A stretch of DNA of 64,000 nt from an uncultured Planctomycetia bacterium (GCA_964392615.1 CAYMRB010000002.1:4243-68242); one strand, 5' to 3'; shown: positions 4,718-59,239, counted from the first letter of the stretch. Program-made: numbers and translations. Notes: generated by a model not told the origin, from the letters alone.

Positions 4718-6091
4718 TTACGGACACGCCGGCGGACGCGTCGCGCAGTCGAGCGTCACGTCCGCGTCGAGCTCCGCTATGTCGCACTCGGGGTAGGGAG
4801 CAGGTGGAGGCGGGGCGCCGAGGAAGAGGTGGTTCAACAGGTAGCTCGGATCGGCTACGTCGACGATGTCGTCATCGTTGGCGTCGACCGCCGCGAGACA
4901 GCCGGGCCCACGGCCGCCGAGAAACAGCCAGCTGAGGGCGAAGACGGCATCGGACAGGTCGACGATGCCGTCTTCGTTGCCGTCGCCGCGCAGGAAGACG
5001 GGCAGGTCGCGATGCTCCTCGAGCTCCTCCTGCACGGCGTAGTAGGCGGGCTTCGGACCGTACTGCTCGTCGAAGAGGGACGGGTACTCGTCTCGCCGCC
5101 AGCCGTGCGCGTCGGAAATGTGCCAGGTGTTCCAGCCGACCACGCCGCCGCTCCGCTTCTCCAGAAGCTCCTCGACGATGCGGCGATAGGTCCCGGCTTG
5201 GGCCTCGAGCTGATCGGTCGAGTCATCGTCGATGAAGACGCTCGCCTCGGTGACGTGGAACTCGAGATCGCGCTCGTGGGCCCAATCGATCAACAGGCGC
5301 AGCGCGCGGCGATTCGACGACGTGTTCCAGCCGACAGCGACATGAGCCTGCCACCCGATGCCGTCAACGCGCAGCCCGCGATCGCGCAAGTACTGAACGG
5401 TCTCCTTGATGAGATCCCAGGAAGCCGTGGTGCTCGGCGACTCGTGGTGGTTGTAGATCAGTTTGAGATCCGGAGCGTGCTCGGCGGCGATCTCGAAGGC
5501 GTATCGGATGTAGAGCGGTGTCCGCCGCGCGTCGGTGTCGCGGCCGATCTTGAACCACGGACACTCCCAGCTCGTACCGGCCCTGTCCCTGTGCCAGTCG
5601 CCGTTGCGAACGGTTTCGTTGACCACGTCGATGGATACGAACCCCGGGCGGTCATTGTAGCGTTGGCACAGGGCGGTGAAGTACTCGCGCAGGTTCAGCT
5701 CGAGCTCGGCAGCCGTGCGGGAGTCGTCGCGCGCCCAATCGGAGCATTGCGGACTGACGGGGCCATGGATGCGAAGGACCTGGTCGTTCTCGACGACGTG
5801 TTGCACCCACGCGTCGCTGCGCGACCAATTCCACCTGTCGGGACTCGGATGCACGATGCTCTGCTTGAAGTCGTTCTCCGGAGTCACGTAGGCGAACTCG
5901 CGATCCAGCACCGTGCCCTGGCTCGTGCCGAAGGCCCACGATCCGGTCGTCGCGCCGATGAGCACGCGGCCTTCTTCGAAGTGGCTCGCGACGATCTCGC
6001 GCAGCCGCCGGCCCGACGGAACGGGGGGATCGCCTCCGTAGACGTGTGCGGATGCGAGGAGCAGGAGCAGGGAAACTCGAAGCGACAGCAT
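4718..6091 (-). CDS. GH10 family endo-beta-1,4-xylanase-like glycoside hydrolase with a C-terminal dockerin-like module
   Basis: GH10 blocks are present: YVTPENDFKQ, IDVVNET (acid/base Glu), GIGWQAHV and FHVTEASV (nucleophile Glu). Signal peptide MLSLRVSLLLLLASAHVYG. The track ORF extends to 6661 with an Arg-rich junk N-terminus overlapping the upstream gene, so I moved the start to the ATG at 6091. Confidence 0.8.
   Translation of the reverse strand: MLSLRVSLLLLLASAHVYGGDPPVPSGRRLREIVASHFEEGRVLIGATTGSWAFGTSQGTVLDREFAYVTPENDFKQSIVHPSPDRWNWSRSDAWVQHVVENDQVLRIHGPVSPQCSDWARDDSRTAAELELNLREYFTALCQRYNDRPGFVSIDVVNETVRNGDWHRDRAGTSWECPWFKIGRDTDARRTPLYIRYAFEIAAEHAPDLKLIYNHHESPSTTASWDLIKETVQYLRDRGLRVDGIGWQAHVAVGWNTSSNRRALRLLIDWAHERDLEFHVTEASVFIDDDSTDQLEAQAGTYRRIVEELLEKRSGGVVGWNTWHISDAHGWRRDEYPSLFDEQYGPKPAYYAVQEELEEHRDLPVFLRGDGNEDGIVDLSDAVFALSWLFLGGRGPGCLAAVDANDDDIVDVADPSYLLNHLFLGAPPPPAPYPECDIAELDADVTLDCATRPPACP
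4721..4996 (-). other. Dockerin-like double EF-hand module with a Cys-rich tail (C-terminus of the GH10 protein)
   Basis: RGDGNEDGIVDLSDAVFALSWLFLGG...C...DANDDDIVDVADPSYLLNHLFLGAPPP...ECD...DCATRPPACP. Confidence 0.7.
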
Positions 6092-6150
6092 GACGTCGAT
6101 CCTACCCCCTGGAGCGGTCGTGGACACCCTCGGCGAGCGAGAACCGGGCG

Positions 6151-7637: not shown

Positions 7638-7645
7638 GGCGACTA

Positions 7646-10074: not shown

Positions 10075-10098
10075 AGCGCTATCTCGGGGTTGTCGGGA

Positions 10099-11136: not shown

Positions 11137-11196
11137 GTGTTTCTCTCCAGATCAGGCCGGCTCCGTGTCGACAGCAGCCGGGACGGTCCAATCAGC

Positions 11197-12309: not shown

Positions 12310-12508
12310 GTTCGTTCCCCTCCCTACTGACTCCTGGTGTGATGAGAGATACGCAGAGATGCGGAATAGCAGGTCCGAGCTCTGGTTCGGGACTCGAGTG
12401 GGCGCGCATCCTATGGCAGATCCAGCAAAGCATCAACGGTCTGCGATGGGCCACACGGGAGTTGACTTTCCGTGCGTTCACGGAGATCGTGCCGCCAAGG
12501 AGGGCGTG

Positions 12509-13507: not shown

Positions 13508-13523
13508 TCATCTGCGACAGGAG

Positions 13524-15972: not shown

Positions 15973-15978
15973 CAGCCC

Positions 15979-23294: not shown

Positions 23295-24401
23295 ATGGAA
23301 ATCGAATCACCTGCGGGGACGAGCATCGCCAGGGTCGCGCGGCTGATCGAGGAGGATCTGCTGCGTCGGGATCTTCTGCCGGATCAGCGGTACTTGACCG
23401 CGCAGGAAGCCGGCGAGCGCTTCGGAGTCCACCCGCGCATGGCCAGCCGCGCGATGAACGTCCTCGCGGAACGCCAGCTGTTGGTGCGCCGCCGGGGTTC
23501 CGGCACGATCGTCGGGCCCGGACTGCGCGAGTATCGCAAGTTTCGACTGCGGTGTGTGCACGTGCTGGTCTCGGAGAGTCGCTACCATCGCGGGCTGTCC
23601 GGCATGCACCTGCTGGAGGCAGTGCAGCGCGAGCTGGTGGGCCACGGCGTTCAGTTCAACGTCCTCCCGGCCGCCGACGAGGAGTCGTACGTGGCCGAGC
23701 TGCTTCGCCGGGGCACGGAGGACGGATCGTTGGCCGGACTGATCGTCATCGGGTGTGGACGCGCGACGCAGGAGCTCGTCGACGCCCGCAGGGTGCCGGC
23801 GGTCGTCTTCGGCCACGTGTATCCGATGACGCGAGACCTGCCCTCGGTGGACCTGGACCAGGAGAGTGCGGGGAGACTGCTCGCGCGCTGTGTCCTGGAG
23901 CGGGGGCACCGGCGGCTCGCGGTGATGGCGAACGACGTCTGGCTTCCCGGGGACAACCTGTTCCTTGACGGTGTGCAGGCAGAAGCTGCAGGGCGCGCGA
24001 CGGTGCTCGTGCGAGGACTGCCTCTGGAGGAGAAAGTCCTGCGAAGCGAGTTGGGCGACCTGATGTCGTCACCCGAGCCGCCGACGGCGTTCATCTGCCG
24101 CATGCCGTCGCGGGCGCGAATCGTGCTGGACGCTATTCGAGCGCGTGGCGCCGCCGTGCCGGAGGAGTTCGACGTCGTGTTCGACCATCCGCACGAGAGC
24201 GAGCAGGATACCCAGCTAAGCGACGTCCTGCAGTGCCCTCACGTCTTCTGCGAGGAGACCGAGGAGAGCCAGGCGGCGATCGTGTCGCGCATGTTGCGAG
24301 CGCTCGTCGATGGGGAGCGAATCGACAGCTCCACGATCGAGCTGCCGGTGCGCCTTGTCGTCCCGGATCACCGAACGAATCCGCCTCCGGAGAGGAGATG
24401 A
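23295..24401 (+). CDS. Transcriptional regulator: GntR-type winged-helix N-terminus fused to a LacI/PBP1-like sugar-binding domain
   Basis: wHTH segment YLTAQEAGERFGVHPRMASRAMNVLAERQLLVRRRGSGTIV, followed by a periplasmic-binding-protein-like effector domain (GLIVIGCG, VPAVVFGH, RRLAVMAN). Its stop overlaps the next start (ATGA at 24398-24401). Confidence 0.7.
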   Translation: MEIESPAGTSIARVARLIEEDLLRRDLLPDQRYLTAQEAGERFGVHPRMASRAMNVLAERQLLVRRRGSGTIVGPGLREYRKFRLRCVHVLVSESRYHRGLSGMHLLEAVQRELVGHGVQFNVLPAADEESYVAELLRRGTEDGSLAGLIVIGCGRATQELVDARRVPAVVFGHVYPMTRDLPSVDLDQESAGRLLARCVLERGHRRLAVMANDVWLPGDNLFLDGVQAEAAGRATVLVRGLPLEEKVLRSELGDLMSSPEPPTAFICRMPSRARIVLDAIRARGAAVPEEFDVVFDHPHESEQDTQLSDVLQCPHVFCEETEESQAAIVSRMLRALVDGERIDSSTIELPVRLVVPDHRTNPPPERR

Positions 24402-26953: not shown

Positions 26954-26955
26954 CC

Positions 26956-29853: not shown

Positions 29854-29866
29854 AGGGGGGAGCACC

Positions 29867-49500: not shown

Positions 49501-51231
49501 GGGATCGGCGCGGTGATGCTCGACTGGGACTCCAACGCCGAGGACGACCTCGCGAGCTACAACGCATACCGCTCCGAGTCGCCCGGCGGCCCGTACGAGC
49601 TCATCGCCGAAGGCGTCGGCTCGAGCGACTATGTCGATACGACGGCCATCAACGGCACGACGTACCATTACGTCGTCACTGCCGTCGACGGTTCGGACAA
49701 CGAGTCCGACGCATCGGACGAGGCGAGCGCGGCGCCGAGCGCGCCCGACGAGCTCGGCGCCTCGACCTTCGCGCACTGCCTGCTGTTCGAGACCAACGGC
49801 GAGCTGCCGTCGGTCGAGGGCGCCGGCGATGGGTGGGCAGAGGACGCGTCGTGGAACCAGAACGATCCGGATCCGCCGACGCTCGCCGTCTTCGGCGGTC
49901 GGCTGATCTTCGACTCCGCGCTCGCGGGGCAGCACGCAATCACGATGTGGGAAGGCTCGGCATGGGAAGCGGAGATCGACGCGAGCGTGTCGTACACCAT
50001 GGAGCTCGACGTCAAGGTGAACGCGAGCGCCGGCGACGCTTCGGGCGTGACCGTGTGGCTCGCCAACGGCAGCACGCGATTGATCCTGCGCGTCGACACG
50101 AACGGTGTCTACACGTGGGCGGGCGATGAGCTCGACGCGAGCGACAACTCGGCCGAGTTCGCGACGATCCGCGTCGGCTACGATGCGCTCGGCGGTCTGT
50201 ACTACGTGTGGCGCAACGGCGTGCTGATCGGGGATGGCGTGCCGCCCAGCGGCAGTACTGCGCGCACGGCCGTGTTCCTGATCGACTGCTGCACGTCGGT
50301 GCAGGTCACCGGCGAGTTCGACTCGGTGTGCTGGACGGCCGACGGCATCTACGGGCCGGACCTCACGGCGCCGGATGCGCCGACCGGTCTCGGTGCCACT
50401 GGCGGTGAAGGCGAGGTTGCGCTCGACTGGGACGACAACGCCGACGCGGACCTCGCGGCCTACGATGTGCTGCGATCCGAGATGGCCGGTGGGCCGTACG
50501 ACGTGATCGCAAGCGATGTCGCGACGAGCTCGTACGTCGATACGGACGTCGTCAACGGCACGACGTACCACTACGTCGTCGTCGCCGTCGACACGAGCGG
50601 CAATCTCTCCGGCGCTTCGAACGAGGCGTCGGCGACTCCGGAGGACGTCACCGCGCCGAGCGCGCCTACGGGGCTCATGGCGGTCGGCGGTGACGCGGAG
50701 GTCATTCTCGACTGGGACGACAACGCCGAGGCTGACCTCGCGAGCTACAGCGTGCTGCGCTCGGAGACGACCGGCGGGCCGTACACCGAGGTCGCGAGCG
50801 GCCTCGCGACGAGCGATTGGGTCGATACCGCCGTCGTGAACGGTACGACGTACTACTACGTGGTGACGGCTACAGACACGGCGGACAACGAGTCCGACGA
50901 GTCGGTCGAAGCCGAAGCGACGCCGCTCGAGCCTGGCGGCCTCCAGCTGCCCGGCGACTGCAACCAGGACGGCGAGGTCGATGTGTCGGACGCTCTCTGC
51001 CTGTTCGGCTTCCTGTTCACCGGCGTGACTCCGGAGCTGCCCTGCGGCGATGGCTCGATTGACGATCCTGCGAACCTCACTCTGTTGAACTACAACGCTG
51101 GCACGGACCAGCAGCTCGACATCTCCGACGGCATCGCCGCGCTGGGCTACCTGTTCCTCGGCGGCCCGCCGCACGCCCTCGGTGAGGAGTGCATCCGCAT
51201 CGTCGACTGTGCGGACGTCTGTACCCCTTGA
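46564..51231 (+). CDS. Giant secreted repeat protein A: 5 copies of an uncharacterised ~200-aa module, 4 FN3 domains and a dockerin-like tail
   Basis: GAGAGG precedes the ATG at 46564. Signal peptide MSDMSRRRLVLLLTVCASCAWATTASA. The modules and FN3 domains are as listed in the repeat features. The antisense 1534-aa ORF is Arg-rich junk. Confidence 0.8.
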   Translation: MSDMSRRRLVLLLTVCASCAWATTASALDGMKDSTQFPHALEFETDGEIPSVEGAADGWQETVWTIDGASAPSLSVAGGVMTVDTVGVGGGHDLRLPVGTSAWAAEVGPDTSYTFEARLKVTAQGGSDPGFTFWLGNGVAAETAVVQVRTDEVMYGRTTQVLHEGDNAAEFVTVRIAHDGETGLHTIYRNGVAIGSDLGPSDLQHGNNWVILVDFGGANEVAAVVDYVRWDATGAYEPDDGTRDASELAHKLLFETDGELPSVEGAADGWGERAWHTLAGVSASGRPTLEVSGGWLRYDSFTGDGTSSSGGEWIQNGRGSSAWAGEVVAAGASYTLEVSIRVTSAAGGGTILWVGNGSNLLNLKVSTDALAAGGGFGVEGLDNSSAPVTLRLAYDASAGTYDIWHDEALVGDDVTPADGNDDRMILIDCCSSLASAGEIDYVRWTAAGALDPSTASSTFAHALEFETDGELPQFEGAADGWTMTGGWKVDGAPPSLDVVDGLLQFDTFTVNGGTGGAPDIHMEGGSAWEAEVVTPGASFTLEVGLRVLDASSSGVALFLGSGSRRLILNVSPSAVLTNSGEGTLHEGDNASELVAIRVGFDSATARHYVWRNGILIGDGLEAQAHGDARCILLDTSSGFAIRGELDYVCWEAGLYPPPDSGEDNEAPAPPTGLVAEAGVSTVSLDWDSNSEDDVAGYNVYRSETSGGPHALLADGVGQSAFVDDTVANGTEYFYVVTAVDASENESDASDEASATPGFGGEAEADAFGHCLHFEVDGELPNVEGVADGVMLDASWNATPDVPPTMTVSDGLVHFESALPGQHAITMTAGSAWNTEVGASGTYTIEASLSVTSATQGFVFWVEGGGRRLILRVDTNGIFTWDGAQLHEGDNASRLVLVRVGYEPIGGLYYVWRNGILIGDGVAPSASTGDARVFLIDCCSSTQATGAMDYLCWDATGIYPPASIVDEVPPAAPTGLAATGGIGAVMLDWDSNAEDDLASYNAYRSESPGGPYELIAEGVGSSDYVDTTAINGTTYHYVVTAVDGSDNESDASDEASAAPSAPDELGASTFAHCLLFETNGELPSVEGAGDGWAEDASWNQNDPDPPTLAVFGGRLIFDSALAGQHAITMWEGSAWEAEIDASVSYTMELDVKVNASAGDASGVTVWLANGSTRLILRVDTNGVYTWAGDELDASDNSAEFATIRVGYDALGGLYYVWRNGVLIGDGVPPSGSTARTAVFLIDCCTSVQVTGEFDSVCWTADGIYGPDLTAPDAPTGLGATGGEGEVALDWDDNADADLAAYDVLRSEMAGGPYDVIASDVATSSYVDTDVVNGTTYHYVVVAVDTSGNLSGASNEASATPEDVTAPSAPTGLMAVGGDAEVILDWDDNAEADLASYSVLRSETTGGPYTEVASGLATSDWVDTAVVNGTTYYYVVTATDTADNESDESVEAEATPLEPGGLQLPGDCNQDGEVDVSDALCLFGFLFTGVTPELPCGDGSIDDPANLTLLNYNAGTDQQLDISDGIAALGYLFLGGPPHALGEECIRIVDCADVCTP
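46672..47277 (+). repeat. Repeat module copy A1 (divergent, no CC pair)
   Basis: FPHALEFETDGEIPSVEGAADGW ... TSAWAAEV ... SYTFEA ... LHEGDNAAEFVTVRIAHD ... IYRNGVAIG ... VVDYVRWDATGAYEP. Confidence 0.8.
47305..47919 (+). repeat. Repeat module copy A2
   Basis: LAHKLLFETDGELPSVEGAADGW ... SSAWAGEV ... SYTLEV ... YDIWHDEALVGD ... ILIDCCSS ... EIDYVRWTAAGALDP. Confidence 0.8.
47938..48534 (+). repeat. Repeat module copy A3 (no CC pair)
   Basis: FAHALEFETDGELPQFEGAADGW ... GSAWEAEV ... LHEGDNASELVAIRVGFD ... HYVWRNGILIGDG ... ELDYVCWEAGLYPP. Confidence 0.8.
48862..49443 (+). repeat. Repeat module copy A4
   Basis: FGHCLHFEVDGELPNVEGVADG ... GSAWNTEV ... RRLILRVDTNG ... LHEGDNASRLVLVRVGYE ... YYVWRNGILIGDG ... 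FLIDCCSS ... MDYLCWDATGIYPP. Confidence 0.85.
49768..50358 (+). repeat. Repeat module copy A5
   Basis: FAHCLLFETNGELPSVEGAGDGW ... GSAWEAEI ... SYTMEL ... TRLILRVDTNG ... YYVWRNGVLIGDG ... FLIDCCTSVQ ... EFDSVCWTADGIYGP. Confidence 0.85.
50941..51228 (+). other. Dockerin-like double EF-hand module with a Cys-rich tail (C-terminus of giant protein A)
   Basis: PGDCNQDGEVDVSDALCLFGFLFTG...LPCGDGSIDDPANLTLLNYNAGTDQQLDISDGIAALGYLFLGGPPHALGEECIRIVDCADVCTP. Confidence 0.75.
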
Positions 51232-51316
51232 CGAACGAGGAGAACGAGCCGCGGCGCCTTCTTCCAGCGGGCGCCCGGCTCGCAATCCCTTCCGAATGAT
51301 CCCGAAAGGAAACGAC

Positions 51317-54300
51317 ATGTCGATCCCACGACGACTCCTGGCGGTATCGATCGGCTTCGTGCTGACGATGCCGTGCTATGCGGGCTTCGAGCGGGCCGAG
51401 TCGATCGACTTCGAGCACTTTCTCGAGTTCGAAGACGATGGCGTCTTGCCGTCGGCCGAGGGCCTCGCGGATGGTTGGCTCGAGGATGCGGTCTGGAACA
51501 TCGACGGCGACACGCCTCCGATGCTGAGCGTCGCTGACGGTTTGCTACGCTTCCAGTCCGTCCCGGCGGGCCAGCAGTCCATCACCATGTGGGGCGGCTC
51601 GGCGTGGGAGACGGAGGTGACTCCGGAGACGTCGTACACGATGGAGGTACGCGTCCGCGTGCTCGCGGCTGGCGGCGCGCAGCCGGGCGTGGTTCTGTGG
51701 CTCGCGAACGGTCAGAGACGATTGATTCTCCGCGTCGGCGTCGACGGGCTCTTCACGTGGGGGGGCGAGCAGCTCGACGCAGGCGACAACTCGACCGACT
51801 TCGTCACGATTCGCGTCGCCTATCATGCTGCCAGCGCCACGTATTGGGTTTGGCGTAACGACGTCCTGGTTGGCAATCGCGTGCCGGACAGCGGCGCAGC
51901 CGCCCAGGGGCGGACGGCGGTCTTTCTGATCGACTGCTGCACGTCGGTCGAGGTCGAAGGCGAGCTCGACTGGGTGCGCTGGGACGCGACCGAGGCCTTC
52001 GCGCCTCCCGCCGATCCGGACGACGAAACCGCACCTCCGGCGCCGACGGGCCTCGCCGCGGTCGGCGAGGACGGTCGCGTGCTGCTCGACTGGGACGACA
52101 ACACCGACGACGAGTTCGTGTGTTATGCCCTCTACCGTTCCGAAGACGCGGGCGGCCCGTTCGACCTCGTCGACGACGCTCTCTTCACGAGCGAGGCGAT
52201 CGACACGGATGTCGCGAATGGCACGACGTACCACTACGTCGTCCGCGCGGTCGACGCGAACGACAACGAGTCGGACGAGTCGAACGAGGCGAACGCGACG
52301 CCGTCGTCGGGCGTCGACGTGACGGCTCCGGAGATGCCGGTCGGCCTCATCGCGACGTCGCGCGGCGGCGCGATCTTCCTCGACTGGAACGACAACCTCG
52401 AGGGCGACCTCGCCGGCTACATCGTCAGTCGCTCGGAGGTCGCCGGCGGCCCGTACGCCGTCCTCGCGGACGACGTGACGATCAGCGAGTTCGAGGATGA
52501 CGCCGTCGCGGCGCAGACGCGTTACTACTACATCGTCGCGGCGTACGACGATGCGGACAATGCGTCCGACCCGACGCCGGAGGTCAGCTCCATCGTCACG
52601 ATCGGTATCGACGACGAGATCGAGAAGGAGGCGGAGGACTTCCCGCACAAGCTGCTCTTCGACGTCGACGGGCTTCTGCCGACCGAGGAGGGAGCCGATG
52701 ACGGCTGGACGATGGAGGCGTTCAACATCGGCGAGGGTGCGGCGCCGCCGAGCGTCGACGTGGTCGACGGACACCTCGCCTTCGAGACGGTTCTCGCCGG
52801 CCAATGGTCGCTGACGAACAACGGCGGCGCGTGGACGGCGGAGATCGACCCCACCGTGTCGTACACGTTCGAGGTCGCCATTCGGGTCACCGCTGCCAGC
52901 GGCGGAGTCCCGGGCGCGGTGATGTGGCTCGCCAACGGTCAGGAGCGTCTGGTCCTCGTCATCGGCACGGACAGCGTTTCGACGTGGTCCGGCACCCAAC
53001 TTCACGAAGGGGACAACTCCACGGAGTTCGTGTCGTTTCGCATCGCGTACGATGCCGCGAGCGGGCTGTACTTCGTCTGGCGGGACGGAGCCCTGATCGG
53101 CACGGAGATCCCCGCCGACGCCGCGGACGGTCGCACGGCCCTCTTCCTGCTCGACTGCTGTTCGACCGTGCAAGCGGCCGGCGAGGTCGACTACGTGTGC
53201 TGGGACGCCTCGGGTGCGTACTGGCCGCCGGTCGACGAAGGCGACGTGACAGCTCCCGACGCACCGACGGGTCTCGCCGCGGTGGCCGAGGAGTCGCGCG
53301 TCACGTTGAGCTGGGAGGAGAATTCGGAGCCGGATCTCGGCTCGTACCAGGTGGGACGCAGCGAGGACTCCGGCGGCCCGTACGAGATCATCGCCGAGAC
53401 GGGAGCGACGTCGTACGACGACGAGGCCGTCGTCAACGGGACGACGTACTTCTATGTCGTCTACGCCGTCGACGTGAACCGCAACGTTTCGGATCCGTCC
53501 GACGAGGTCGAGGCCACGCCGGAGGAAGGTGTCGACCTCACGGCGCCGGCGGCACCGACGGGCCTGCGCGCCGTGGTGACGCAGTTTGCCGAGGTCGCGC
53601 TGAGCTGGAATCTCGGCCCGGAGTTCGACCTCGACACGTACAACGTGTACCGATCCGAAACGGCCGGTGGGCCGTACGATATCATCGCCGAGGCGCTTTC
53701 GTTCTTCGAGGCCTCGTACACCGACGATGCCGTCGACCTGGGGACCACGTACTACTACGTCGTCACGGCGGTCGATGTGTCAGGCAACGAGTCCGAGTAC
53801 TCGGCAGAAGAGAGCGCCACACCGGAGGAGTTCGAGGGCTTCCCGGAGCGCGACGCGATGACCTTTGCGCACAAGCTCCTCTTCGAGGACGACGGCGTGC
53901 TACCGTCGGTCGAAGGAGCGGACGACGGCTGGGCCGAGGACGCCGCGTGGAACATCGGCGGTGACGTGGCCCCGTCGCTCGACGTGGTCGACGGGCTGCT
54001 GCAGTTCGAGTCGGTCCTGCCCGGACAGCAGTCGATCAAGCTGGAGGCCGGTTCGGCCTGGGCGGCCGAGGTCGATCCGGAGACGTCGTACACGTTCGAG
54101 GTGGGCCTGCGCATGATTGCGACGGATGCTCCGAATCCGGGCGCCTCCCTGTGGTTCGCCAACGGCGGGACACGGTTGATTCTGCGCGTTGATCTGAACG
54201 GTCTGTACACGTGGTCCGGTCAGCAGCTCAGTGACGAGGACAACACGGCGGACTTCGTGGCCCTCCGCGTCGCGTACGACGCCGCCCGCGGCGTGTACTT

Positions 54301-54772
54301 CGTCTGGCGCAACGAGGTCCTGGTCGGCGACGCGTTGCCCGAGGATGCCGCGGCAGCGGGTGGCCGGACGGCGGTCTTCCTGATCGACTGCTGCACGAGC
54401 GTCCAGGCGCAAGGCGAGTTCGACTACGTGTGCTGGGACGCGACCGGCGCCTACGCCCCCGGTGACGGCGGCGAGGAGCGGCCGCAGTTCCGTCGCGGCG
54501 ATGCCGACGCGAGCGGTCTCCTTCAGCTCAACGATGCGATCTTCGTGTTCAACTTCCTGTTCCTCGGCGGCCCGGACACGACGTGTCAGGAGGCCGCCGA
54601 CGCGGACAATAACAACCGGGTCGAGCTGACCGACGGTATCCGCGTGCTGAACTTCCTGTTCACCGGCGGACCGCCGCCTGTCGATCCCGGCCCGACCGAC
54701 TGCGGCACCGATTCCGACGCGCCGGGCTCGCCGGGTGATCTCGGCTGCGTCGAGTACGAAGCCTGTCCCTGA
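51317..54772 (+). CDS. Giant secreted repeat protein B: 3 copies of the module, 4 FN3 domains and a dockerin-like tail
   Basis: AAAGGAAA precedes the ATG at 51317. Signal peptide MSIPRRLLAVSIGFVLTMPCYAG. FN3 pairs lie between the modules (for example LDWDDNTDDEFVCYALYRSEDAGGP...GTTYHYVVRAVDANDNESD). Confidence 0.8.
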   Translation: MSIPRRLLAVSIGFVLTMPCYAGFERAESIDFEHFLEFEDDGVLPSAEGLADGWLEDAVWNIDGDTPPMLSVADGLLRFQSVPAGQQSITMWGGSAWETEVTPETSYTMEVRVRVLAAGGAQPGVVLWLANGQRRLILRVGVDGLFTWGGEQLDAGDNSTDFVTIRVAYHAASATYWVWRNDVLVGNRVPDSGAAAQGRTAVFLIDCCTSVEVEGELDWVRWDATEAFAPPADPDDETAPPAPTGLAAVGEDGRVLLDWDDNTDDEFVCYALYRSEDAGGPFDLVDDALFTSEAIDTDVANGTTYHYVVRAVDANDNESDESNEANATPSSGVDVTAPEMPVGLIATSRGGAIFLDWNDNLEGDLAGYIVSRSEVAGGPYAVLADDVTISEFEDDAVAAQTRYYYIVAAYDDADNASDPTPEVSSIVTIGIDDEIEKEAEDFPHKLLFDVDGLLPTEEGADDGWTMEAFNIGEGAAPPSVDVVDGHLAFETVLAGQWSLTNNGGAWTAEIDPTVSYTFEVAIRVTAASGGVPGAVMWLANGQERLVLVIGTDSVSTWSGTQLHEGDNSTEFVSFRIAYDAASGLYFVWRDGALIGTEIPADAADGRTALFLLDCCSTVQAAGEVDYVCWDASGAYWPPVDEGDVTAPDAPTGLAAVAEESRVTLSWEENSEPDLGSYQVGRSEDSGGPYEIIAETGATSYDDEAVVNGTTYFYVVYAVDVNRNVSDPSDEVEATPEEGVDLTAPAAPTGLRAVVTQFAEVALSWNLGPEFDLDTYNVYRSETAGGPYDIIAEALSFFEASYTDDAVDLGTTYYYVVTAVDVSGNESEYSAEESATPEEFEGFPERDAMTFAHKLLFEDDGVLPSVEGADDGWAEDAAWNIGGDVAPSLDVVDGLLQFESVLPGQQSIKLEAGSAWAAEVDPETSYTFEVGLRMIATDAPNPGASLWFANGGTRLILRVDLNGLYTWSGQQLSDEDNTADFVALRVAYDAARGVYFVWRNEVLVGDALPEDAAAAGGRTAVFLIDCCTSVQAQGEFDYVCWDATGAYAPGDGGEERPQFRRGDADASGLLQLNDAIFVFNFLFLGGPDTTCQEAADADNNNRVELTDGIRVLNFLFTGGPPPVDPGPTDCGTDSDAPGSPGDLGCVEYEACP
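51410..52009 (+). repeat. Repeat module copy B1
   Basis: FEHFLEFEDDGVLPSAEGLADGW ... GSAWETEV ... SYTMEV ... RRLILRVGVDG ... YWVWRNDVLVGN ... FLIDCCTSVE ... ELDWVRWDATEAFAPP. Confidence 0.85.
52640..53230 (+). repeat. Repeat module copy B2
   Basis: FPHKLLFDVDGLLPTEEGADDGW ... GGAWTAEI ... SYTFEV ... LHEGDNSTEFVSFRIAYD ... YFVWRDGALIG ... FLLDCCSTVQ ... EVDYVCWDASGAYWPP. Confidence 0.85.
53864..54460 (+). repeat. Repeat module copy B3
   Basis: FAHKLLFEDDGVLPSVEGADDGW ... GSAWAAEV ... SYTFEV ... TRLILRVDLNG ... YFVWRNEVLVGD ... FLIDCCTSVQ ... EFDYVCWDATGAYAP. Confidence 0.85.
54488..54769 (+). other. Dockerin-like double EF-hand module with a Cys-rich tail (C-terminus of giant protein B)
   Basis: RRGDADASGLLQLNDAIFVFNFLFLGGPDTTCQEAADADNNNRVELTDGIRVLNFLFTGGPPPVDPGPTDCGTDSDAPGSPGDLGCVEYEACP. 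Confidence 0.7.
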
Positions 54773-54799
54773 TTCGGCCGCCGTTGCAGAGCGATCGCG

Positions 54800-57700
54800 A
54801 TGGCCGTGATCGATCCTACGAGAATCGATAGCGACATGAACAGCCCCCACGAGAACCTCCTGATCTCGACCGGTCCGAGCCGGATCGTCGCGGCTGTCGT
54901 GACCGCTCTGCTTCTTCCATGCGTGCCGTCACTGGCCGACGACCCGGTTATCACCGAGTTCCTCGCCGCCAACTCGAGCTCGCTTCGCGACAGCGACGGG
55001 GACACGTCTGACTGGATCGAGATCCACAATCCCGGCGCCGAGAGCGTTGAGCTCGGCGGGTGGCGCCTGACGGATGACAGCCTGCTCCTGAAGTGGGCGT
55101 TCCCCGATCTCGAGCTGCCCGCCGACGCACGCCTCGTGGTCTTCGCCTCTGGGAAAGACCGGACGGATACGGGAGACGGTGGGGCGGTCGTCGACAGCGG
55201 TCGCGATTCGTCGACCTTCGCCCACCGCCTCGAGTTCGACGATGACGGCGTGCTGCCATCGGTCGAGGGGGGCGACGATGGTTGGCGTGAGGACGCTGCG
55301 TGGAACGTCGGCGGGCCTCCGCCGAGTCTCGACGTTGCCGATGGCCTCCTGGCATTCGAGTCGGTCCTCTCCGGCCAACAGGCGATCACGATGCCGGGCG
55401 GGTCGGCATGGGAGGCGGGAATCGACGCGGGGACGTCGTACACGTTCGAGGTGCGGCTGCGAGTCGTCTCGTCCGGCGGCGCGAACCCCGGCGCGATCAT
55501 CTGGTTGGCCAACGGCGAGGAGCGGCTGATTCTCCGCGTCGAGGAGAACGGCGTCAGCACGTGGTCGGGAATCGACCTCGATCCCGACGGACGCGACAAC
55601 GCCACCGAACTCGTCGCGTTTCGAGTCGCCTATGACGCGACCGACGGCCTGTACACCGTCTGGCGCGACGGCGTGCTCCTCGGCGATGATGTTCCGTCTG
55701 ACGGCGCAGCGAGCGGCGGCCGCACGGCGGTCTACCTGATCGATTGCTGCTCGAGCGTGCAAGTCGCGGGCGAGCTCGACTGGGTGCGCTGGGACGCGAC
55801 GGGGGCCTATCCCCCTCCCGGTGCCGGCGGCGGAGTCGACCTGCCGGAGCTGCACACGAACTTCTCTCTGTCGTCGAGCGGCGAGTACCTCGCGCTCGTC
55901 TCGCCCGACGGGACGCGCGTGTCGACGGAGTTCGCACCGTCATTTCCACTGCAGCGACGTGACGTGTCCTACGGTCCGGATGGTTACTACCTGACGCCCA
56001 CACCGGGCGCGCCGAACGGTACGGCCGTCGCCGGTTTCACGGCGGACCCCGAGTTCAGCCGGGCGCGCGGCTTCTACGACGCGTCGTTCGACCTCGCGTT
56101 GTCGACCGCGACGCCGGGAGCCTCGATTCGCTACACGGTCGACGGCAGCAAGCCGAGCGCCGACGACGGGCTGCTCTACTCGGGCCCGATCGAGGTGACG
56201 ACGACGACCTGCGTCCGCGCGATCGCATTCGCCGAGGGGTTCGCATCGTCGAAAGCGATCACCCACAGCTACCTGTTTCTCGAGGACGTGCTGCGGCAGA
56301 CCGGCGCCGGGTTTCCGGTCGATCCGGATTGGGACTACGACATGGACCCGAACGTCGTCGACGACCCGCGATACGCCGACGGCATGATCGGCGCGTTGCG
56401 CTCGCTGCCGACGCTGTCCCTGGCGCTACCGGTCGAGGACATGTTCGGGCCGAGCGGCATCCACGCGAACCCGACGCAGGGAGGCTTCGCGTGGGAGCGT
56501 GAGACTTCTGCGGAGTGGATTCTACCGGACGGCACGACCGCGTTTCAGGTCGACTGCGGCGTGCGGATCCAGGGCGCGGGCAGTCGTTTCCGGTCTCTCG
56601 GCAAGAAGTCATTCCGTCTGGCGTTCCGCAGCCGATACGGTCCCGGCAAGCTCGAGTATCCGATCTTCGGCTTCGACGCTGCCGATGAGTTCGACACGCT
56701 GGTCGTGCGCGGCAACTACTTCGACACGTGGAGCGTGCATACGTCAGGCGACGGCGAGACGATCGGCTGGGAGGCCGCGCTGCTGTTCCGCGATCCGTTC
56801 GGTTACATCAGCCAAGCGGACAGCGGCCACACCACGCTGCACGGCACCTGGGTGCATCTGTACATCGACGGGCTGTACTGGGGGGTGTACAACGTCACGG
56901 AGCGTCCCGACGAGGAGTTCGCCGCGTCCTATTTCGGCGGTGATCCGGAAGACTACGACGTCCTCAAGCAGCGCCCGCGCGGCGCCGGAAACGGCAGCCC
57001 CCCCGATCTCGTCAGCGGCGATCGGGCCGGGTGGAACGAGCTTCGCGATCTGGTCCTGGACGACATCGCGTCGTCGGAGGTCTATGCGGAGGTCGGTGAG
57101 CGCCTCGATCTCGGCGCGTTTGCAGACTACCTGATCCTGAACCTGTGGGGCGGCAATCAGGACTGGCCGCACAACAATTGGTACGCGATCCGCGACGCCG
57201 AAGACGGCACGCCTTTTCGTTTCATCGCGTGGGACACGGAGAACTTCATCTTCCGGCTCAATGAGTCCGGCAAGCTCAATACGAGCGTCGACCACTCTCC
57301 GGGCATCCTGTACAGCCGGCTGCGGACGAACGAGGAATTCCGCGTGCTGTTCGGCGACCACGCGCACCGCTTGCTGTTTCACGGTGGAGCGTTCACGCCC
57401 GAGAGCGCGAGCGAGCGCTTTTCCGCCATCGCCGACGAGATACGCGACGCGATGGACGGCGAAGCCGCGCGCTGGGGCGATACGCGCATCGAACCCCCGC
57501 GCAACCGACTCGACACATGGGAGGTCGTGATCGCCGACAAGCTGGGACGGTACTTCCCGCGGCGAACGGACATCGCGCTGGGGCAGTTCCGATCGATCGG
57601 TCTCTATCCGGACGTCGACGCGCCCGTATACAATCGGCACGGTGGGGCGATCGACCCAGGGTTCGCGTTGCGGGTCTCGGCGCCTGCGGGGACCGTTTGG

Positions 57701-59239
57701 CTCACGCTGGATGGAAGCGATCCACGTCTGCCCGGCGGCTCGGTGTCCCCGAGTGCCACTGAGGTCGGTACGGAAGGCGCGGCGCTCCTGAACGCCGGTG
57801 CGCCGGCGCGGGCTCTCGTACCCACGGACGGCGCGCTCGGAGTCGAATGGACCCACCTAGCGTTCGACGACGCGACATGGCTCTCGGGAGCTACCGGCGT
57901 CGGCTTCGAGCGCTCGAGCGGCTTCGAGGACCTCATCGGACTCGACGTCGAAACGCAGGCGTGGAACGTCAACGAGACGGTGTACGTCCGCGTGCCTTTC
58001 GAGCTCGATGGCGATCCGGCGGCCGTCGGCCTCCTGACCCTGCGGATGCAGTACGACGACGGATTCGTCGCCTACCTGAACGGCACCGAGATCGCGTCGC
58101 GCAACGCGCCCGACGACCTGACGTGGAATTCGGGAGCGACGCGTGGTCACACGGACAGCGCCGCAACCGTGTTCGAGAGCATCGACGTCAGCGAGCACGT
58201 GGACGCGCTGCGACGAGGAACGAACGTCTTGGCGATCCACGGTCTCAATTCCGGCGTCAACTCGAGCGATCTCCTGTTCGTGCCGGAGATCAACGCGGTT
58301 CGCTTGGGCGGTGTCGGTCTGGTCTTGGACCGTACGACGATCGCGCGATCCCGTGCGCGTGCCGGCGACGAGTGGAGCGCGCTGCACGAAGCGACCTTCG
58401 TCGTCGATTCCTCGGTGCTCCGAATCACGGAGATCATGTACCACCCGCGGCCTGCGCCGGTGCTCCCTGACGATCCGCCCGGCGGGAGTCCGTTCTCCGA
58501 CGACGATTTCGAGTTCATCGAGCTTCGCAACGTCGGGGACGTGCCGATCAATCTCGTCGGCATGCGGTTCGTCTCCGGGATCGAGTTCACGTTCCCGGCG
58601 GGCAGTCAGGACCCGGCCGATGACTTGCAGCCGGGCGAGTTCGTGCTCGTCGTCGAGAATCTGGAGGCGTTCCGTTCGCGTTACGACGTGACGGACCTCT
58701 ACATCGCCGGGCAGTATCGCGGCAACCTCGACAACGACGGCGAGTCCATCGTCCTCGTCGACGCCCTCGGACGGTTGACCCTCGACTTCGTCTACAGCGA
58801 CAACTGGCATCGCATCACGGATGGTCTCGGGCGCTCGCTCGAGATCATCGATGCCACCGCACCGCCCGAGACGTGGGGGCTGCGCACGTCCTGGAGCGCG
58901 AGCGAGGTCGACGACGGCACTCCGGGTACCGGGCCGGATCTCATCGACGGTGGCCTGCAACGTCCGGGCGACATCAACCAGGACGGAAACGTCGACATCT
59001 CAGACGGGGTCGGCCTCCTGGGCCACCTGTTCGGCGGCGCGTTGCCGGTCCTGCCGTGTGGCGACGGTACGGTACGAGACGCGGCGAACCGCGCGCTTCT
59101 CGATGGCTCCGGCGACGGTTCCGTCGATCTGTCGGATGCCGTCTATCTCCTCAACTACTTGTTCCAGGGCGGTCCGCCTCACGCGGGCGGCGTCGAATGC
59201 GTTTCGGTTTCCGGTTGCCCGCGCGGTTGCGATTCGTAA
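54800..59239 (+). CDS. CotH-family protein with N- and C-terminal lamin-tail domains (LTD), one inserted repeat module, a chitobiase/hexosaminidase-C-like domain and a dockerin-like tail
   Basis: LTD 1: VITEFLAANSSSLRDSDGDTSDWIEIHNPGAESVELGGWRLTDD ... LVVFASGKDR [module] ELHTNFSLSSSGEYLALVSPDG. CotH core: ETSAEWILPDGTTAFQVDCGVRIQGAGSRFRSLGKKSFRLAFRSRYG ... LVVRGNYFD ... VHLYIDGLYWGVYNVTERPDEEF. LTD 2: LRITEIMYHP...FEFIELRNVGDVPINLVGMRF...GEFVLVV...NLDNDGESIVLVDALG. An alternative start is MNSPHE at 54836. Confidence 0.8.
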   Translation: MAVIDPTRIDSDMNSPHENLLISTGPSRIVAAVVTALLLPCVPSLADDPVITEFLAANSSSLRDSDGDTSDWIEIHNPGAESVELGGWRLTDDSLLLKWAFPDLELPADARLVVFASGKDRTDTGDGGAVVDSGRDSSTFAHRLEFDDDGVLPSVEGGDDGWREDAAWNVGGPPPSLDVADGLLAFESVLSGQQAITMPGGSAWEAGIDAGTSYTFEVRLRVVSSGGANPGAIIWLANGEERLILRVEENGVSTWSGIDLDPDGRDNATELVAFRVAYDATDGLYTVWRDGVLLGDDVPSDGAASGGRTAVYLIDCCSSVQVAGELDWVRWDATGAYPPPGAGGGVDLPELHTNFSLSSSGEYLALVSPDGTRVSTEFAPSFPLQRRDVSYGPDGYYLTPTPGAPNGTAVAGFTADPEFSRARGFYDASFDLALSTATPGASIRYTVDGSKPSADDGLLYSGPIEVTTTTCVRAIAFAEGFASSKAITHSYLFLEDVLRQTGAGFPVDPDWDYDMDPNVVDDPRYADGMIGALRSLPTLSLALPVEDMFGPSGIHANPTQGGFAWERETSAEWILPDGTTAFQVDCGVRIQGAGSRFRSLGKKSFRLAFRSRYGPGKLEYPIFGFDAADEFDTLVVRGNYFDTWSVHTSGDGETIGWEAALLFRDPFGYISQADSGHTTLHGTWVHLYIDGLYWGVYNVTERPDEEFAASYFGGDPEDYDVLKQRPRGAGNGSPPDLVSGDRAGWNELRDLVLDDIASSEVYAEVGERLDLGAFADYLILNLWGGNQDWPHNNWYAIRDAEDGTPFRFIAWDTENFIFRLNESGKLNTSVDHSPGILYSRLRTNEEFRVLFGDHAHRLLFHGGAFTPESASERFSAIADEIRDAMDGEAARWGDTRIEPPRNRLDTWEVVIADKLGRYFPRRTDIALGQFRSIGLYPDVDAPVYNRHGGAIDPGFALRVSAPAGTVWLTLDGSDPRLPGGSVSPSATEVGTEGAALLNAGAPARALVPTDGALGVEWTHLAFDDATWLSGATGVGFERSSGFEDLIGLDVETQAWNVNETVYVRVPFELDGDPAAVGLLTLRMQYDDGFVAYLNGTEIASRNAPDDLTWNSGATRGHTDSAATVFESIDVSEHVDALRRGTNVLAIHGLNSGVNSSDLLFVPEINAVRLGGVGLVLDRTTIARSRARAGDEWSALHEATFVVDSSVLRITEIMYHPRPAPVLPDDPPGGSPFSDDDFEFIELRNVGDVPINLVGMRFVSGIEFTFPAGSQDPADDLQPGEFVLVVENLEAFRSRYDVTDLYIAGQYRGNLDNDGESIVLVDALGRLTLDFVYSDNWHRITDGLGRSLEIIDATAPPETWGLRTSWSASEVDDGTPGTGPDLIDGGLQRPGDINQDGNVDISDGVGLLGHLFGGALPVLPCGDGTVRDAANRALLDGSGDGSVDLSDAVYLLNYLFQGGPPHAGGVECVSVSGCPRGCDS
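55217..55816 (+). repeat. Repeat module copy C1 (inserted within the N-terminal LTD of the CotH-family protein)
   Basis: FAHRLEFDDDGVLPSVEGGDDGW ... GSAWEAGI ... SYTFEV ... ERLILRVEENG ... YTVWRDGVLLGDD ... YLIDCCSSVQ ... ELDWVRWDATGAYPP. Confidence 0.85.
58955..59236 (+). other. Dockerin-like double EF-hand module with a Cys-rich tail (C-terminus of the CotH-family protein)
   Basis: PGDINQDGNVDISDGVGLLGHLFGGALPVLPCGDGTVRDAANRALLDGSGDGSVDLSDAVYLLNYLFQGGPPHAGGVECVSVSGCPRGCDS. Confidence 0.75.

What the first reader, a model, noticed from the sequence alone, without database searches (positions are those of the whole stretch)
4721..59236. Five different secreted proteins share one C-terminal dockerin-like double EF-hand, Cys-rich tail, and no cohesin partner is visible
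The same ~70-95 aa tail ends five proteins: the GH10 hydrolase (4721-4996), the multi-esterase (35843-36052), giant protein A (50941-51228), giant protein B (54488-54769) and the CotH-family protein (58955-59236). The consensus is (R/P)GD.N.DG.VD.SDA...L..LF.GG.....C...D.N.D..(V/L)D(I/L)SD.I.LL.(F/Y)LF.GGPP......C. That is two calcium-loop-plus-helix units, as in type I dockerins. Conserved Cys residues are interspersed, and four of the five tails end in a short Cys-containing terminus (ACP, CTP, ACP, GCDS, ADC). Giant A and the CotH protein additionally share LPCGDG(S/T)(I/V).D.AN..LL between the loops. Catalytic enzymes and the repeat-module proteins therefore carry one common address tag. 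This suggests co-assembly on a scaffold or a shared surface-anchoring or sorting route, in the manner of a cellulosome. No protein in the window looks like a cohesin.
Basis: partly seen in the sequence, partly recalled or inferred. Interest (0 to 1): 0.72.

Follow-up and report, generated by a model that had tools for sequence, protein, structure and literature searches.

The report
Planctomycete-type dockerin tails on five secreted proteins
Five secreted proteins in this window end in the same calcium-binding, disulfide-braced dockerin module, a very common but uncurated Planctomycetota variant whose likely cohesin partners are encoded outside the window.

Summary
Exactly five ORFs in the window end in one homologous 70-96 aa tail: a GH10 xylanase, a SASA/GDSL esterase, two giant repeat proteins and an LTD/CotH protein. 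All five have Sec signal peptides.

The tail is a dockerin.
- It has two 12-residue calcium loops, each followed by a helix.
- A confident AlphaFold model (pLDDT 92.8) matches only cellulosomal dockerins in the PDB.
- Pfam Dockerin_1 scores at or below its threshold.

It belongs to a very large, mostly Planctomycetota subfamily, with about 31,600 clusters at E<=1e-10. This subfamily adds an LFLGGPPP motif and a C-terminal extension. Co-varying cysteines in that extension imply one or two disulfides.

No cohesin lies in the window, even when it is searched with a lineage-specific cohesin profile. However, the same module flanks true cohesin domains in many Planctomycetota proteins with the layout signal peptide-Doc-Coh-Doc. 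These proteins share contigs and MAGs with single-tail cargo proteins.

So the cellulosome-like reading is plausible, and a similar "planctosome" has already been hypothesised. It remains unproven for this genome, which was not found in the collections searched. I class it as a new variant of a known kind, of moderate interest.

The parts
4721..4996 (-). Dockerin-type tail of the GH10 xylanase, 4-Cys form (C33, C71, C84, C91). Loops are DGNEDGIVDLSD and DANDDDIVDVAD; it ends ...PPACP.
4718..6091 (-). GH10 endo-xylanase gene, 457 aa, with Sec signal peptide MLSLRVSLLLLLASAHVYG.
   Evidence: Pfam Glyco_hydro_10, 164 bits; start codon
35843..36052 (-). Dockerin-type tail of the esterase. This is the shortest, 2-Cys form, ending ...NADC. 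It is the most canonical of the five: Dockerin_1 scores 23.0 bits against a cut-off of 22.9.
35840..38326 (-). SASA plus GDSL carbohydrate esterase gene, 828 aa, with a signal peptide.
50941..51228 (+). Dockerin-type tail of giant protein A. It is the subtype with the LPCGDG insert and a C-terminal C..I..C...C motif. The second loop is degenerate (NAGTDQQLDISD).
46564..51231 (+). Giant protein A, about 1555 aa, with a signal peptide. It carries at least 5 copies of an unannotated module of about 200 aa, plus Ig-like repeats.
54488..54769 (+). Dockerin-type tail of giant protein B, 4-Cys form, ending ...YEACP.
51296..54772 (+). Giant protein B, about 1150 aa, with a signal peptide and the same 200-aa module at its N-terminus.
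58955..59236 (+). Dockerin-type tail of the LTD/CotH protein. It is the LPCGDG-insert subtype and ends ...CPRGCDS.
54800..59239 (+). LTD - 200-aa module - CHB_HEX_C/Fn3_assoc - CotH protein, 1479 aa, with a signal peptide.

Best explanation
Each tail is a true dockerin module of a Planctomycetota-specific subfamily.

Anatomy of the module:
- Two duplicated segments, each a 12-residue calcium loop (D-x-N/D-x-D-G-x-V-D-I/L-S-D) followed by a helix ending in LF-x-GG.
- A proline-rich turn (PPPxxPxP).
- A short C-terminal extension pinned back on the module by one disulfide (inter-repeat Cys to C-terminal Cys) or two.

Proposed mechanism. The five proteins leave the cytoplasm through Sec. The tail folds with calcium and oxidised cysteines outside the cytoplasm. 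It then docks non-covalently onto cohesin domains of adaptor or scaffold proteins encoded elsewhere in the genome. The typical adaptor is signal peptide-Doc-Coh-Doc or a longer Doc/Coh alternation. In this way a xylanase, an acetyl/sialate esterase, a CotH-family protein and two giant repeat proteins would be held together next to a sulfated/sialylated-glycan utilisation locus.

Shown here:
- The homology of the five tails.
- The dockerin sequence signature and predicted fold.
- The signal peptides.
- The cysteine co-variation.
- Cohesin-bearing proteins that carry the same module in related organisms and contigs.

Inferred, not shown:
- That this genome has such a cohesin protein.
- That the tails bind it.
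- The disulfide pairing.
- The cellular location of the assembly.
For: Sequence:
- Both loops keep the ligand positions 1, 3, 5 and 12 in 9 of 10 loops.
- The family consensus shows near-identical repeats, with I-S at loop positions 10-11 and L-N..LF-L in both helices.

Profile matches:
- Pfam Dockerin_1 scores 23.0, 22.0, 16.7 and 9.9 bits.
- The family profile's significant PDB matches (E<=0.001) are type I and related dockerins, plus one EF-hand carrier protein; the best is E 1.5e-4.

Fold:
- AlphaFold2 gives pLDDT 92.8 and pTM 0.83, with helices at 14-26 and 48-59.
- All 30 Foldseek PDB hits are cellulosomal dockerins, with target-normalised TM 0.34-0.83 (0.53-0.83 for single dockerin modules) and probability 0.60-1.00, at least 0.84 for 28 of the 30.

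Export: all five proteins have signal peptides.

Partner:
- The top family hits are Doc-Coh-Doc proteins. Pfam Cohesin scores 28-46 bits against a cut-off of 24.1 in P0199, P0124, P0145 and P0272.
- The P0199 model (pLDDT 84.6) gives 50 of 50 top Foldseek hits to cohesins, with E down to 1.5e-6.
- 160 of 389 collected proteins carry a cohesin. The commonest architectures are DCD (79), DDCD (24), CD (23), DCDCD (13) and DCCD (13).

Co-occurrence of cohesin proteins and cargo:
- MAG O7J95 has single-tail proteins of both subtypes (P0018, P0070, P0042). It also has P0290, which is 42% identical over its full length to the Doc-Coh-Coh-Doc protein P0197.
- Loci L056, L068, L088 and L126 hold a cohesin ORF and a separate Doc-only ORF.

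Position and copy number: the module also occurs at N-termini and in tandem, as an interaction module would.

Literature: cohesin/dockerin assemblies have already been proposed for Planctomycetes (PMC6461901).
Against: - No cohesin lies in the 64-kb window.
- The source genome was not found in the collections searched, so the presence of a cohesin in it is untested.
- Four of the five tails fall below Pfam's Dockerin_1 cut-off.
- Foldseek E-values for the tail are weak, 0.06 to 1.8, because the domain is small.
- No binding was tested or modelled.
- Many genomes are known to carry dockerin-like modules without cohesins (Peer et al. 2009, as cited in PMC6461901). Homology alone therefore does not prove cohesin binding.
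- The protein sets used for architecture counts were chosen by score and are biased towards multi-copy proteins.
Confidence: 0.6

Rival explanations
1. Orphan dockerin-like module. The fold is a dockerin, but in this organism it does not bind a cohesin. It would instead act as a calcium- and disulfide-stabilised cap, or it would bind some other surface component such as an outer-membrane protein, the S-layer or a glycan.
For: No cohesin lies in the window. Cargo in the family is very diverse and mostly not carbohydrate-active: di-haem oxidoreductase, penicillin amidase, alpha-2-macroglobulin, FG-GAP and beta-helix proteins. About 31,600 clusters carry the module, which may well outnumber the cohesin proteins. 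Dockerins without cohesins are reported in many genomes (Peer et al. 2009, as cited in PMC6461901).
Against: The same subfamily module is fused to true cohesin domains in many proteins, and these co-occur with cargo on contigs and MAGs. The two repeats keep their internal symmetry at the helix positions that contact cohesin in solved complexes. That would be expected for a conserved protein-binding face rather than for a simple stabiliser.
Confidence: 0.27
2. C-terminal sorting signal. The tail would be recognised by a dedicated secretion or attachment machinery and then cleaved or covalently attached, like a T9SS C-terminal domain or a PEP-CTERM signal.
For: All five window copies end exactly at the C-terminus, as do almost all of 110 short metagenomic hits (0-6 residues from the end). 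Orthologous GH10 enzymes in the FCB (Fibrobacterota-Chlorobiota-Bacteroidota) group carry a T9SS Por_Secre_tail at the same position.
Against: Across the family the module also sits at N-termini: 17 of 37 single-copy proteins of at least 250 aa have it away from the C-terminus. It also occurs internally and in 2-12 tandem copies. It has no transmembrane helix or basic tail, and it does not match Por_Secre_tail or any sorting-signal model. It is a confidently folded dockerin.
Confidence: 0.06
3. Chance resemblance or low-complexity Asp/Gly/Pro-rich ends produced by the 67% G+C composition.
For: The sequence is G+C-rich and the tails are rich in D, G and P.
Against: The tails share 16 invariant columns and 37-53% identity. 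External homologues reach E 9e-27. The fold prediction is confident. Only these five ORF ends in the window match.
Confidence: 0.01

Closest known systems
Type I dockerins of clostridial and ruminococcal cellulosomes (Pfam PF00404; for example PDB 1OHZ, 2MTE, 4DH2, 5M2O)
   Same: Both have a duplicated segment of a calcium loop plus a helix, with the same loop ligand positions. The predicted fold is the same (target-normalised TM 0.53-0.83 to single dockerin modules). Both sit at the C-terminus of secreted glycoside hydrolases and esterases. Both keep internal two-fold symmetry.
   Different: The host is a PVC (Planctomycetota-Verrucomicrobiota-Chlamydiota) bacterium, most likely Planctomycetota and, from general knowledge of that phylum, diderm, not a Gram-positive anaerobe. 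The tails add a conserved F-x-R-G-D start, LF-L-G-G helix ends, a PPPxxPxP turn and a Cys-bearing C-terminal extension; clostridial dockerins, from my own knowledge, generally lack conserved cysteines. Most tails score below the Pfam cut-off. Cargo extends far beyond carbohydrate-active enzymes.
The hypothetical 'planctosome' of freshwater Planctomycetes (Andrei et al. 2019, ISME J, PMC6461901)
   Same: Both are a non-cellulosomal cohesin/dockerin assembly proposed for Planctomycetes. Both involve a lamin-tail-domain protein and an adaptor that carries a dockerin and a cohesin.
   Different: That model concerns peptidases in Nemodlikiaceae, and it places the cohesin on the LTD protein. Here the LTD/CotH protein carries the dockerin, the cargo is glycan-directed, and the adaptors found are Doc-Coh-Doc. 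The Cys-braced subfamily is not mentioned in the cohesin/dockerin passages of that paper read here.
Non-cellulosomal cohesin-dockerin pairs (Archaeoglobus fulgidus cohesin, PDB 2XDH; Clostridium perfringens glycosidase complexes, the latter from my own knowledge)
   Same: Cohesin and dockerin modules are used outside cellulose degradation. In C. perfringens they link sialidases and other mucin-degrading enzymes, which resembles the sialic-acid and sulfatase context of this window.
   Different: The lineages and module subtypes differ. No experimental data exist for the Planctomycetota system.
NCBIfam NF041540, GC-type dockerin domain
   Same: It is also a C-terminal dockerin-like domain model. 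It gives the best NCBIfam hit for two of the tails.
   Different: Scores are 23.1 and 15.8 bits against a cut-off of 29, and three tails do not hit at all. The tails are therefore not members by NCBI's criterion.
T9SS C-terminal domain (Pfam PF18962, Por_Secre_tail)
   Same: It occupies the same position on orthologous GH10 xylanases in FCB-group bacteria, so it is a functional analogue as a localisation tag.
   Different: The fold is an unrelated beta-sandwich, it depends on the T9SS, and it is strictly C-terminal and cleaved. None of these properties applies here.

Membership tests
Dockerin (type I-like, Pfam PF00404) | Two tandem segments of about 22 residues, each a 12-residue calcium loop (ligands at positions 1, 3, 5 and 12) followed by an alpha-helix | tested here: met
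   Loops read directly from the sequence. Family consensus. Predicted helices at 14-26 and 48-59. One of the ten loops, the second loop of giant A, is degenerate.
Dockerin (type I-like, Pfam PF00404) | Score at or above the Pfam gathering threshold of 22.9 bits | tested here: inconclusive
   Tails scanned alone scored 23.0 (esterase), 22.0 (CotH), 16.7 (giant A), 9.9 (GH10) and no hit (giant B). Many family relatives pass, for example P0121 at 149 bits.
Dockerin (type I-like, Pfam PF00404) | Dockerin three-dimensional fold | tested here: met
   AlphaFold2 pLDDT 92.8. All 30 Foldseek PDB hits are dockerins, with target-normalised TM 0.34-0.83 (0.53-0.83 for single dockerin modules) and probability 0.60-1.00. 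E-values are only 0.06-1.8 for this small domain. This is a predicted structure, not a solved one.
Dockerin (type I-like, Pfam PF00404) | Calcium-dependent binding to a cognate cohesin | not testable with these tools
   Needs pull-down or ITC experiments, or complex modelling. The structure tool returns single chains only.
Cellulosome-like cohesin-dockerin system | A cohesin-bearing scaffold or adaptor encoded in the same genome | tested here: inconclusive
   Not met within the window. The source genome was not found in the collections searched. Met in related Planctomycetota contigs and MAGs: L056, L068, L088, L126, MAG O7J95 and MAG HY721.
Cellulosome-like cohesin-dockerin system | An anchoring module on the scaffold (SLH domain, sortase signal or membrane anchor) and a substrate-binding CBM | tested here: not met
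   Apart from the signal peptide, the Doc-Coh-Doc proteins examined show only dockerin and cohesin domains, plus Pfam EF-hand models matching the dockerin calcium loops. No SLH, CBM or transmembrane anchor was found.
NCBIfam NF041540, GC-type dockerin | Score at or above the curated cut-off of 29 bits | tested here: not met
   Scores were 23.1 and 15.8 bits; three tails gave no hit.
C-terminal sorting domains (T9SS CTD, PEP-CTERM-like) | Obligate location at the extreme C-terminus, in a single copy | tested here: not met
   17 of 37 single-copy family members have the module away from the C-terminus, and some proteins have 2-12 tandem copies.
C-terminal sorting domains (T9SS CTD, PEP-CTERM-like) | A match to the Por_Secre_tail model, or a transmembrane helix followed by a basic cluster | tested here: not met
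   No such Pfam or NCBIfam hit even at E<=10. The tails end in Cys-x(0-2) with no hydrophobic stretch.
Canonical EF-hand pair | Helix-loop-helix with an entering helix, and a score above the Pfam EF-hand thresholds | tested here: not met
   EF-hand_1/5/6/7 scored 15-17 bits against cut-offs of 25-30, and only for the esterase tail. The model shows no helix before the first loop.

The most novel reading that the evidence does not exclude
The disulfide-braced dockerins and the Doc-Coh-Doc adaptors form a self-assembling network. Each adaptor has one cohesin and two dockerins, so adaptors could chain or branch, and single-dockerin cargo could cap or decorate the chains.

The network would organise dozens of exported proteins in Planctomycetota, possibly inside their enlarged periplasm rather than on the cell surface. 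The cargo seen in related loci includes classes that are typically periplasmic: alpha-2-macroglobulin, di-haem peroxidase and penicillin amidase.

The 2-Cys dockerins on adaptors and the 4-Cys dockerins on cargo could then be two specificity tiers, like type I and type II in cellulosomes.
Probability: 0.2. Interest if true: 0.75.

Novelty: new variant of a known kind. Interest (0 to 1): 0.42.

Why it matters
If the tails do dock onto cohesin adaptors, Planctomycetota would organise xylanases, esterases, CotH-family proteins and many non-CAZyme proteins into calcium-dependent assemblies. That would carry the cohesin-dockerin principle well beyond anaerobic cellulose degraders, into abundant marine and freshwater glycan degraders.

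In practical terms, the subfamily is very large (about 31,600 clusters at 50% identity with E<=1e-10). Pfam Dockerin_1 captures it only partly, and no curated NCBIfam model captures it. A dedicated HMM would improve annotation of Planctomycetota exported proteins.

The conserved disulfide brace is also of interest as a natural way to stabilise dockerins in oxic, low-calcium water, and as a possible orthogonal cohesin-dockerin pair for protein engineering.

Tried and rejected
- **Genome scan with the five-tail alignment.** The search for related loci on genome contigs failed because no 7-10 column stretch was conserved enough. The best match was only 74% identity, to a Pirellulaceae MAG, so the source species is not among the representative genomes.
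- **Exact look-ups of two window proteins.** These found no source contig.
- **The 55 PVC loci around FGGY-kinase homologues (L001-L055).** They contain no tail at all. The module is therefore lineage-restricted rather than general to PVC bacteria.
- **Organism names from cluster members.** None were returned.
- **Gene neighbourhood of the Doc-Coh protein on a 7.87-Mb contig.** It showed no anchoring or secretion genes, only a tail-bearing beta-helix protein 6 kb away.
- **The 200-aa repeat module.** It gave no significant Pfam or PDB sequence match (best E 0.18-0.32).
- **Literature.** Searches for 'GC-type dockerin' and for disulfide-containing non-cellulosomal dockerins found nothing relevant. 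The paper under id PMC3035643 (given for Peer et al. 2009 in the reference list of PMC6461901) is not held.
- **Readings rejected.** These were chance or low-complexity similarity, a canonical EF-hand, a T9SS or PEP-CTERM-like sorting signal, and a T1SS/RTX-type C-terminal signal. The last is ruled out because all five proteins have Sec signal peptides.

Full report
**1. Observation**

The GH10 tail (4721-4996) and the esterase tail (35843-36052) are on the minus strand. The giant A (50941-51228), giant B (54488-54769) and CotH (58955-59236) tails are on the plus strand.

They align with 37-53% identity to the GH10 tail and 16 invariant columns. A profile of the five finds exactly those five ORF ends in the six-frame translation of the window (E 2e-32 to 4e-35), and the next best hit has E about 1. 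Because that test is circular, the independent support matters more: the same profile retrieves 899 external proteins at E<=1e-3, the best at 9e-27.

All five tails end with a Cys within the last four residues. Cys counts are 4, 2, 6, 4 and 4. Giant A and the CotH protein share the LPCGDG...AN..LL insert between the two loops.

All five proteins have Sec-type signal peptides. The GH10 gene really starts at 6091, giving 457 aa.

**2. What the tail is**

Each tail holds two 12-residue loops of the form D-x-N/D-x-D-G-x-V-D-(I/L)-(S/T/A)-D, each followed by a helix. This is the dockerin 'F-hand' duplication.

- Pfam Dockerin_1 is the only consistent family hit: 23.0, 22.0, 16.7 and 9.9 bits against a cut-off of 22.9. 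EF-hand models score well below threshold.
- NCBIfam's GC-type dockerin model scores 23.1 bits against a cut-off of 29, so the tails are not members of that curated family.
- A profile of 115 family members gives, against PDB sequences at E<=0.001, type I and related dockerins plus one EF-hand carrier protein; the best is E 1.5e-4.
- An AlphaFold2 model of the GH10 tail is confident (pLDDT 92.8, pTM 0.83), with helices at 14-26 and 48-59 plus two short ones.
- All 30 Foldseek hits in the PDB are cellulosomal dockerins, with target-normalised TM 0.34-0.83 (0.53-0.83 for single dockerin modules) and probability 0.60-1.00. E-values are weak (0.06-1.8), as expected for so small a domain.

**3. The family**

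An exhaustive HMMER search of 1.84 billion cluster representatives finds 51,259 proteins at E<=1e-3, 31,620 at E<=1e-10 and 2,128 at E<=1e-30. Nearly all named members come from Planctomycetota MAGs; one is from Thermoanaerobaculia.

The consensus over 695 copies is F-x-R-G-D-x-N-x-D-G-x-V-D-I-S-D-A...L..L-F-L-G-G..P-x-C-x-D-A-A-D-x-N-D-D-G-x-V-D-I-S-D...L..L-F-L-G-G-P-P-P-x-x-P-x-P-x-(C)-G-x-D-P-T-x-D-x-L-x-C-....-(C). The two repeats are nearly identical at loop positions 10-11 and in the helix.

Four cysteine positions behave as two co-varying pairs.
- The inter-repeat Cys (92%) and the 'L-x-C' Cys (86%) occur together (odds ratio 74).
- The 'x-C-G' Cys (40%) and the terminal Cys (31%) occur together (odds ratio 269).
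- Copies therefore carry either two or four cysteines, which I read as one or two disulfides bracing the C-terminal extension. This is inference. Sequence relatedness inflates these statistics, and I could not measure distances in the model.

In the window, GH10 and giant B are the 4-Cys form and the esterase is a short 2-Cys form. Giant A and the CotH protein belong to a sister subtype with the insert and a C..(I/V)..C...C ending. That subtype is also found in external proteins (P0005, P0042, P0115).

**4. The cohesin question**

The window has no cohesin.
- Pfam scans of about 34 ORFs gave none.
- A cohesin HMM that I built from Planctomycetota sequences gave nothing better than E 0.47 on the six-frame translation.

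However, the best-scoring family members carry several copies of the tail flanking Pfam Cohesin domains. These include P0199 (390 aa, signal peptide-Doc-Coh-Doc, Cohesin 28 bits against a cut-off of 24.1), P0124 (46 bits), P0145 (38 bits) and P0272 (32 bits).

An AlphaFold2 model of P0199 (pLDDT 84.6) gives 50 of 50 top Foldseek hits to cohesins of types I, II and III, with E down to 1.5e-6.

Among the 389 proteins collected, 160 have a cohesin. It always occurs with the dockerin module, in the architectures DCD (79), DDCD (24), CD (23), DCDCD (13) and DCCD (13).

Cohesin-bearing proteins and single-tail proteins co-occur.
- MAG O7J95 has P0018, P0070 and P0042 (both tail subtypes). It also has P0290, which is 42% identical over its full length to the Doc-Coh-Coh-Doc protein P0197.
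- MAG HY721 has P0273 and P0320.
- A 7.87-Mb contig has a DDCD protein 6 kb from a beta-helix protein that ends in the tail.
- L068, L088 and L126 show the same pairing on single contigs.

Dockerins on cohesin proteins are mostly the 2-Cys form (76%). Those on single-dockerin cargo are mostly the 4-Cys form (63%). This hints at two tiers, but the sample is biased.

**5. Context and cargo**

The window is 64-69% G+C in 4-kb windows and is a glycan-utilisation region. It encodes:
- sulfatases;
- BNR sialidases;
- a NanM-like epimerase in one ORF with a sodium:solute symporter;
- GlcNAc 2-epimerase;
- a DHDPS/NanA-family lyase;
- an FGGY kinase;
- a sugar ABC transporter;
- ThuA and 3-keto-disaccharide hydrolase proteins.

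The FGGY kinase is at most 74% identical to anything in the representative genomes. Its nearest relatives are in Pirellulaceae, Phycisphaerales and Verrucomicrobiota. The host is therefore a PVC bacterium, most likely Planctomycetota.

Elsewhere the tail sits on a di-haem oxidoreductase, a penicillin amidase (at the N-terminus), alpha-2-macroglobulin, and FG-GAP, PKD, NHL, RHS and beta-helix proteins. It is therefore a general docking tag and not specific to carbohydrate-active enzymes.

Tagged genes cluster. In 80 related loci, 29 have more than one tagged ORF and some have five within 20 kb. This mirrors the three consecutive tagged genes at 46.5-59.2 kb here.

Orthologues of the GH10 enzyme show tail swapping.
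- The closest (58-61% identity, about 424 aa) carry a different, Cys-poor dockerin-like tail.
- Forms of about 368 aa have no tail.
- Forms of about 465 aa from FCB-group bacteria carry a T9SS Por_Secre_tail.

The C-terminus of this enzyme is evidently a slot for localisation modules.

**6. Mechanism and rivals**

The best-supported reading (confidence about 0.6) runs as follows. The proteins are exported by Sec. The tail folds with calcium and disulfides, then docks non-covalently on cohesin domains of Doc-Coh-Doc-type adaptors encoded elsewhere. This would co-localise the five proteins.

- **Main rival (about 0.27): an orphan dockerin.** It would bind something else or merely stabilise the protein. 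This cannot be excluded without the genome.
- **C-terminal sorting signal: unlikely (about 0.06).** The module also occurs at N-termini (17 of 37 single-copy proteins), internally and in up to 12 tandem copies. It also lacks any sorting-signal signature.
- **Chance similarity: excluded.**

**7. Comparison and novelty**

By sequence signature and predicted fold this is a dockerin. By function it is probably a dockerin too, but the defining property of cohesin binding is untested.

It differs from classical type I dockerins in four ways: the host phylum, the F-x-R-G-D and LFLGG motifs, the proline turn, and the disulfide-braced extension. Pfam captures it only marginally, and the curated NCBIfam dockerin_GC model does not capture it at all.

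A cohesin/dockerin 'planctosome' was proposed for freshwater Planctomycetes in 2019 (PMC6461901) and is cited as a hypothesis since. The general idea is therefore not new. Searches of the held literature found no description of this Cys-bearing subfamily or of the Doc-Coh-Doc adaptors.

I rate it a new variant of a known kind, with interest 0.42.

**8. Limits**

- No binding was tested, no complex was modelled, and no solved structure exists.
- The disulfide pairing, the location of the assembly (surface or periplasm) and the presence of a cohesin in this particular genome are all inferred.
- Architecture and cysteine statistics come from score-selected, phylogenetically related samples.

Noticed in passing
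window 46564-51231 (giant A), 51296-54772 (giant B), 55187-55834 (CotH protein residues about 130-345): An unannotated module of about 200 aa (F-x-H-x-L-E-F-x-x-D-G-x-L-P-S-V-E-G-x-x-D-G-W ... C-C-S-S ... W-D-A-x-G) is repeated at least five times in giant A. It also occurs at the N-terminus of giant B and once in the CotH protein, with 41-58% identity between copies. It has no significant Pfam or PDB sequence match (best E 0.18-0.32).
   Followed up: partly
window 26095-29853 (+): A NanM-like N-acetylneuraminate epimerase domain (residues 472-748) and a sodium:solute symporter domain (783-1185) lie in one ORF, which suggests an epimerase-transporter fusion. Nearby ORFs also look fused: sulfatase+BNR (24233-26953) and sulfatase+SASA esterase (29831-32824). 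The true start codons were not resolved.
   Followed up: no
window 3-3152 (-) and 17944-20910 (-): Two large paralogous proteins carry the Pfam HZS_alpha (hydrazine synthase alpha middle) domain, one of them with a PD40 repeat, inside a sugar-utilisation locus. Their role here is unknown.
   Followed up: no
P0390-P0509 (GH10 homologues of window 4718-6091): The C-terminal tail is swapped among close GH10 orthologues. Some carry a Cys-poor dockerin-like tail (DFNLDRxVD...W), some carry none, and FCB-group forms carry a T9SS Por_Secre_tail (PF18962).
   Followed up: yes
L083, L104, L105, L125 (metagenome contigs); also L085, L093, L116: Three to five tail-bearing genes occur within about 20 kb, in an arrangement conserved across L083, L104, L105 and L125. 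In L083 they include a di-haem oxidoreductase (DHOR) and a penicillin amidase with the module at its N-terminus; L081 has an alpha-2-macroglobulin with the tail. These cargo classes are typically periplasmic, which raises the possibility that the system works in the periplasm.
   Followed up: partly
window 50941-51228 (giant A tail): The second calcium loop of giant A is degenerate (NAGTDQQLDISD, with positions 1 and 3 lacking Asp/Asn). This tail also has two extra cysteines (C7 in the first loop and C20 in the first helix) that are not conserved in the family.
   Followed up: no
window 58821-60263 (+) against 54800-59239 (+): The listed 480-aa ORF for the DHDPS/NanA-family lyase overlaps the end of the CotH gene by about 420 nt. 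The Pfam domain starts at residue 172, and a plausible start (MPKLTGLIAATY...) lies after the CotH stop, so the mechanical ORF start is too far upstream.
   Followed up: partly
P0121, P0127, P0129 and similar (family members, not in the window): Some proteins consist of 7-12 tandem copies of the dockerin module with no cohesin. Some also carry a peptidoglycan-binding domain (PG_binding_1) or bacterial TSP3 repeats. A multi-dockerin protein with a peptidoglycan anchor could be the cell-wall attachment point of the system.
   Followed up: no
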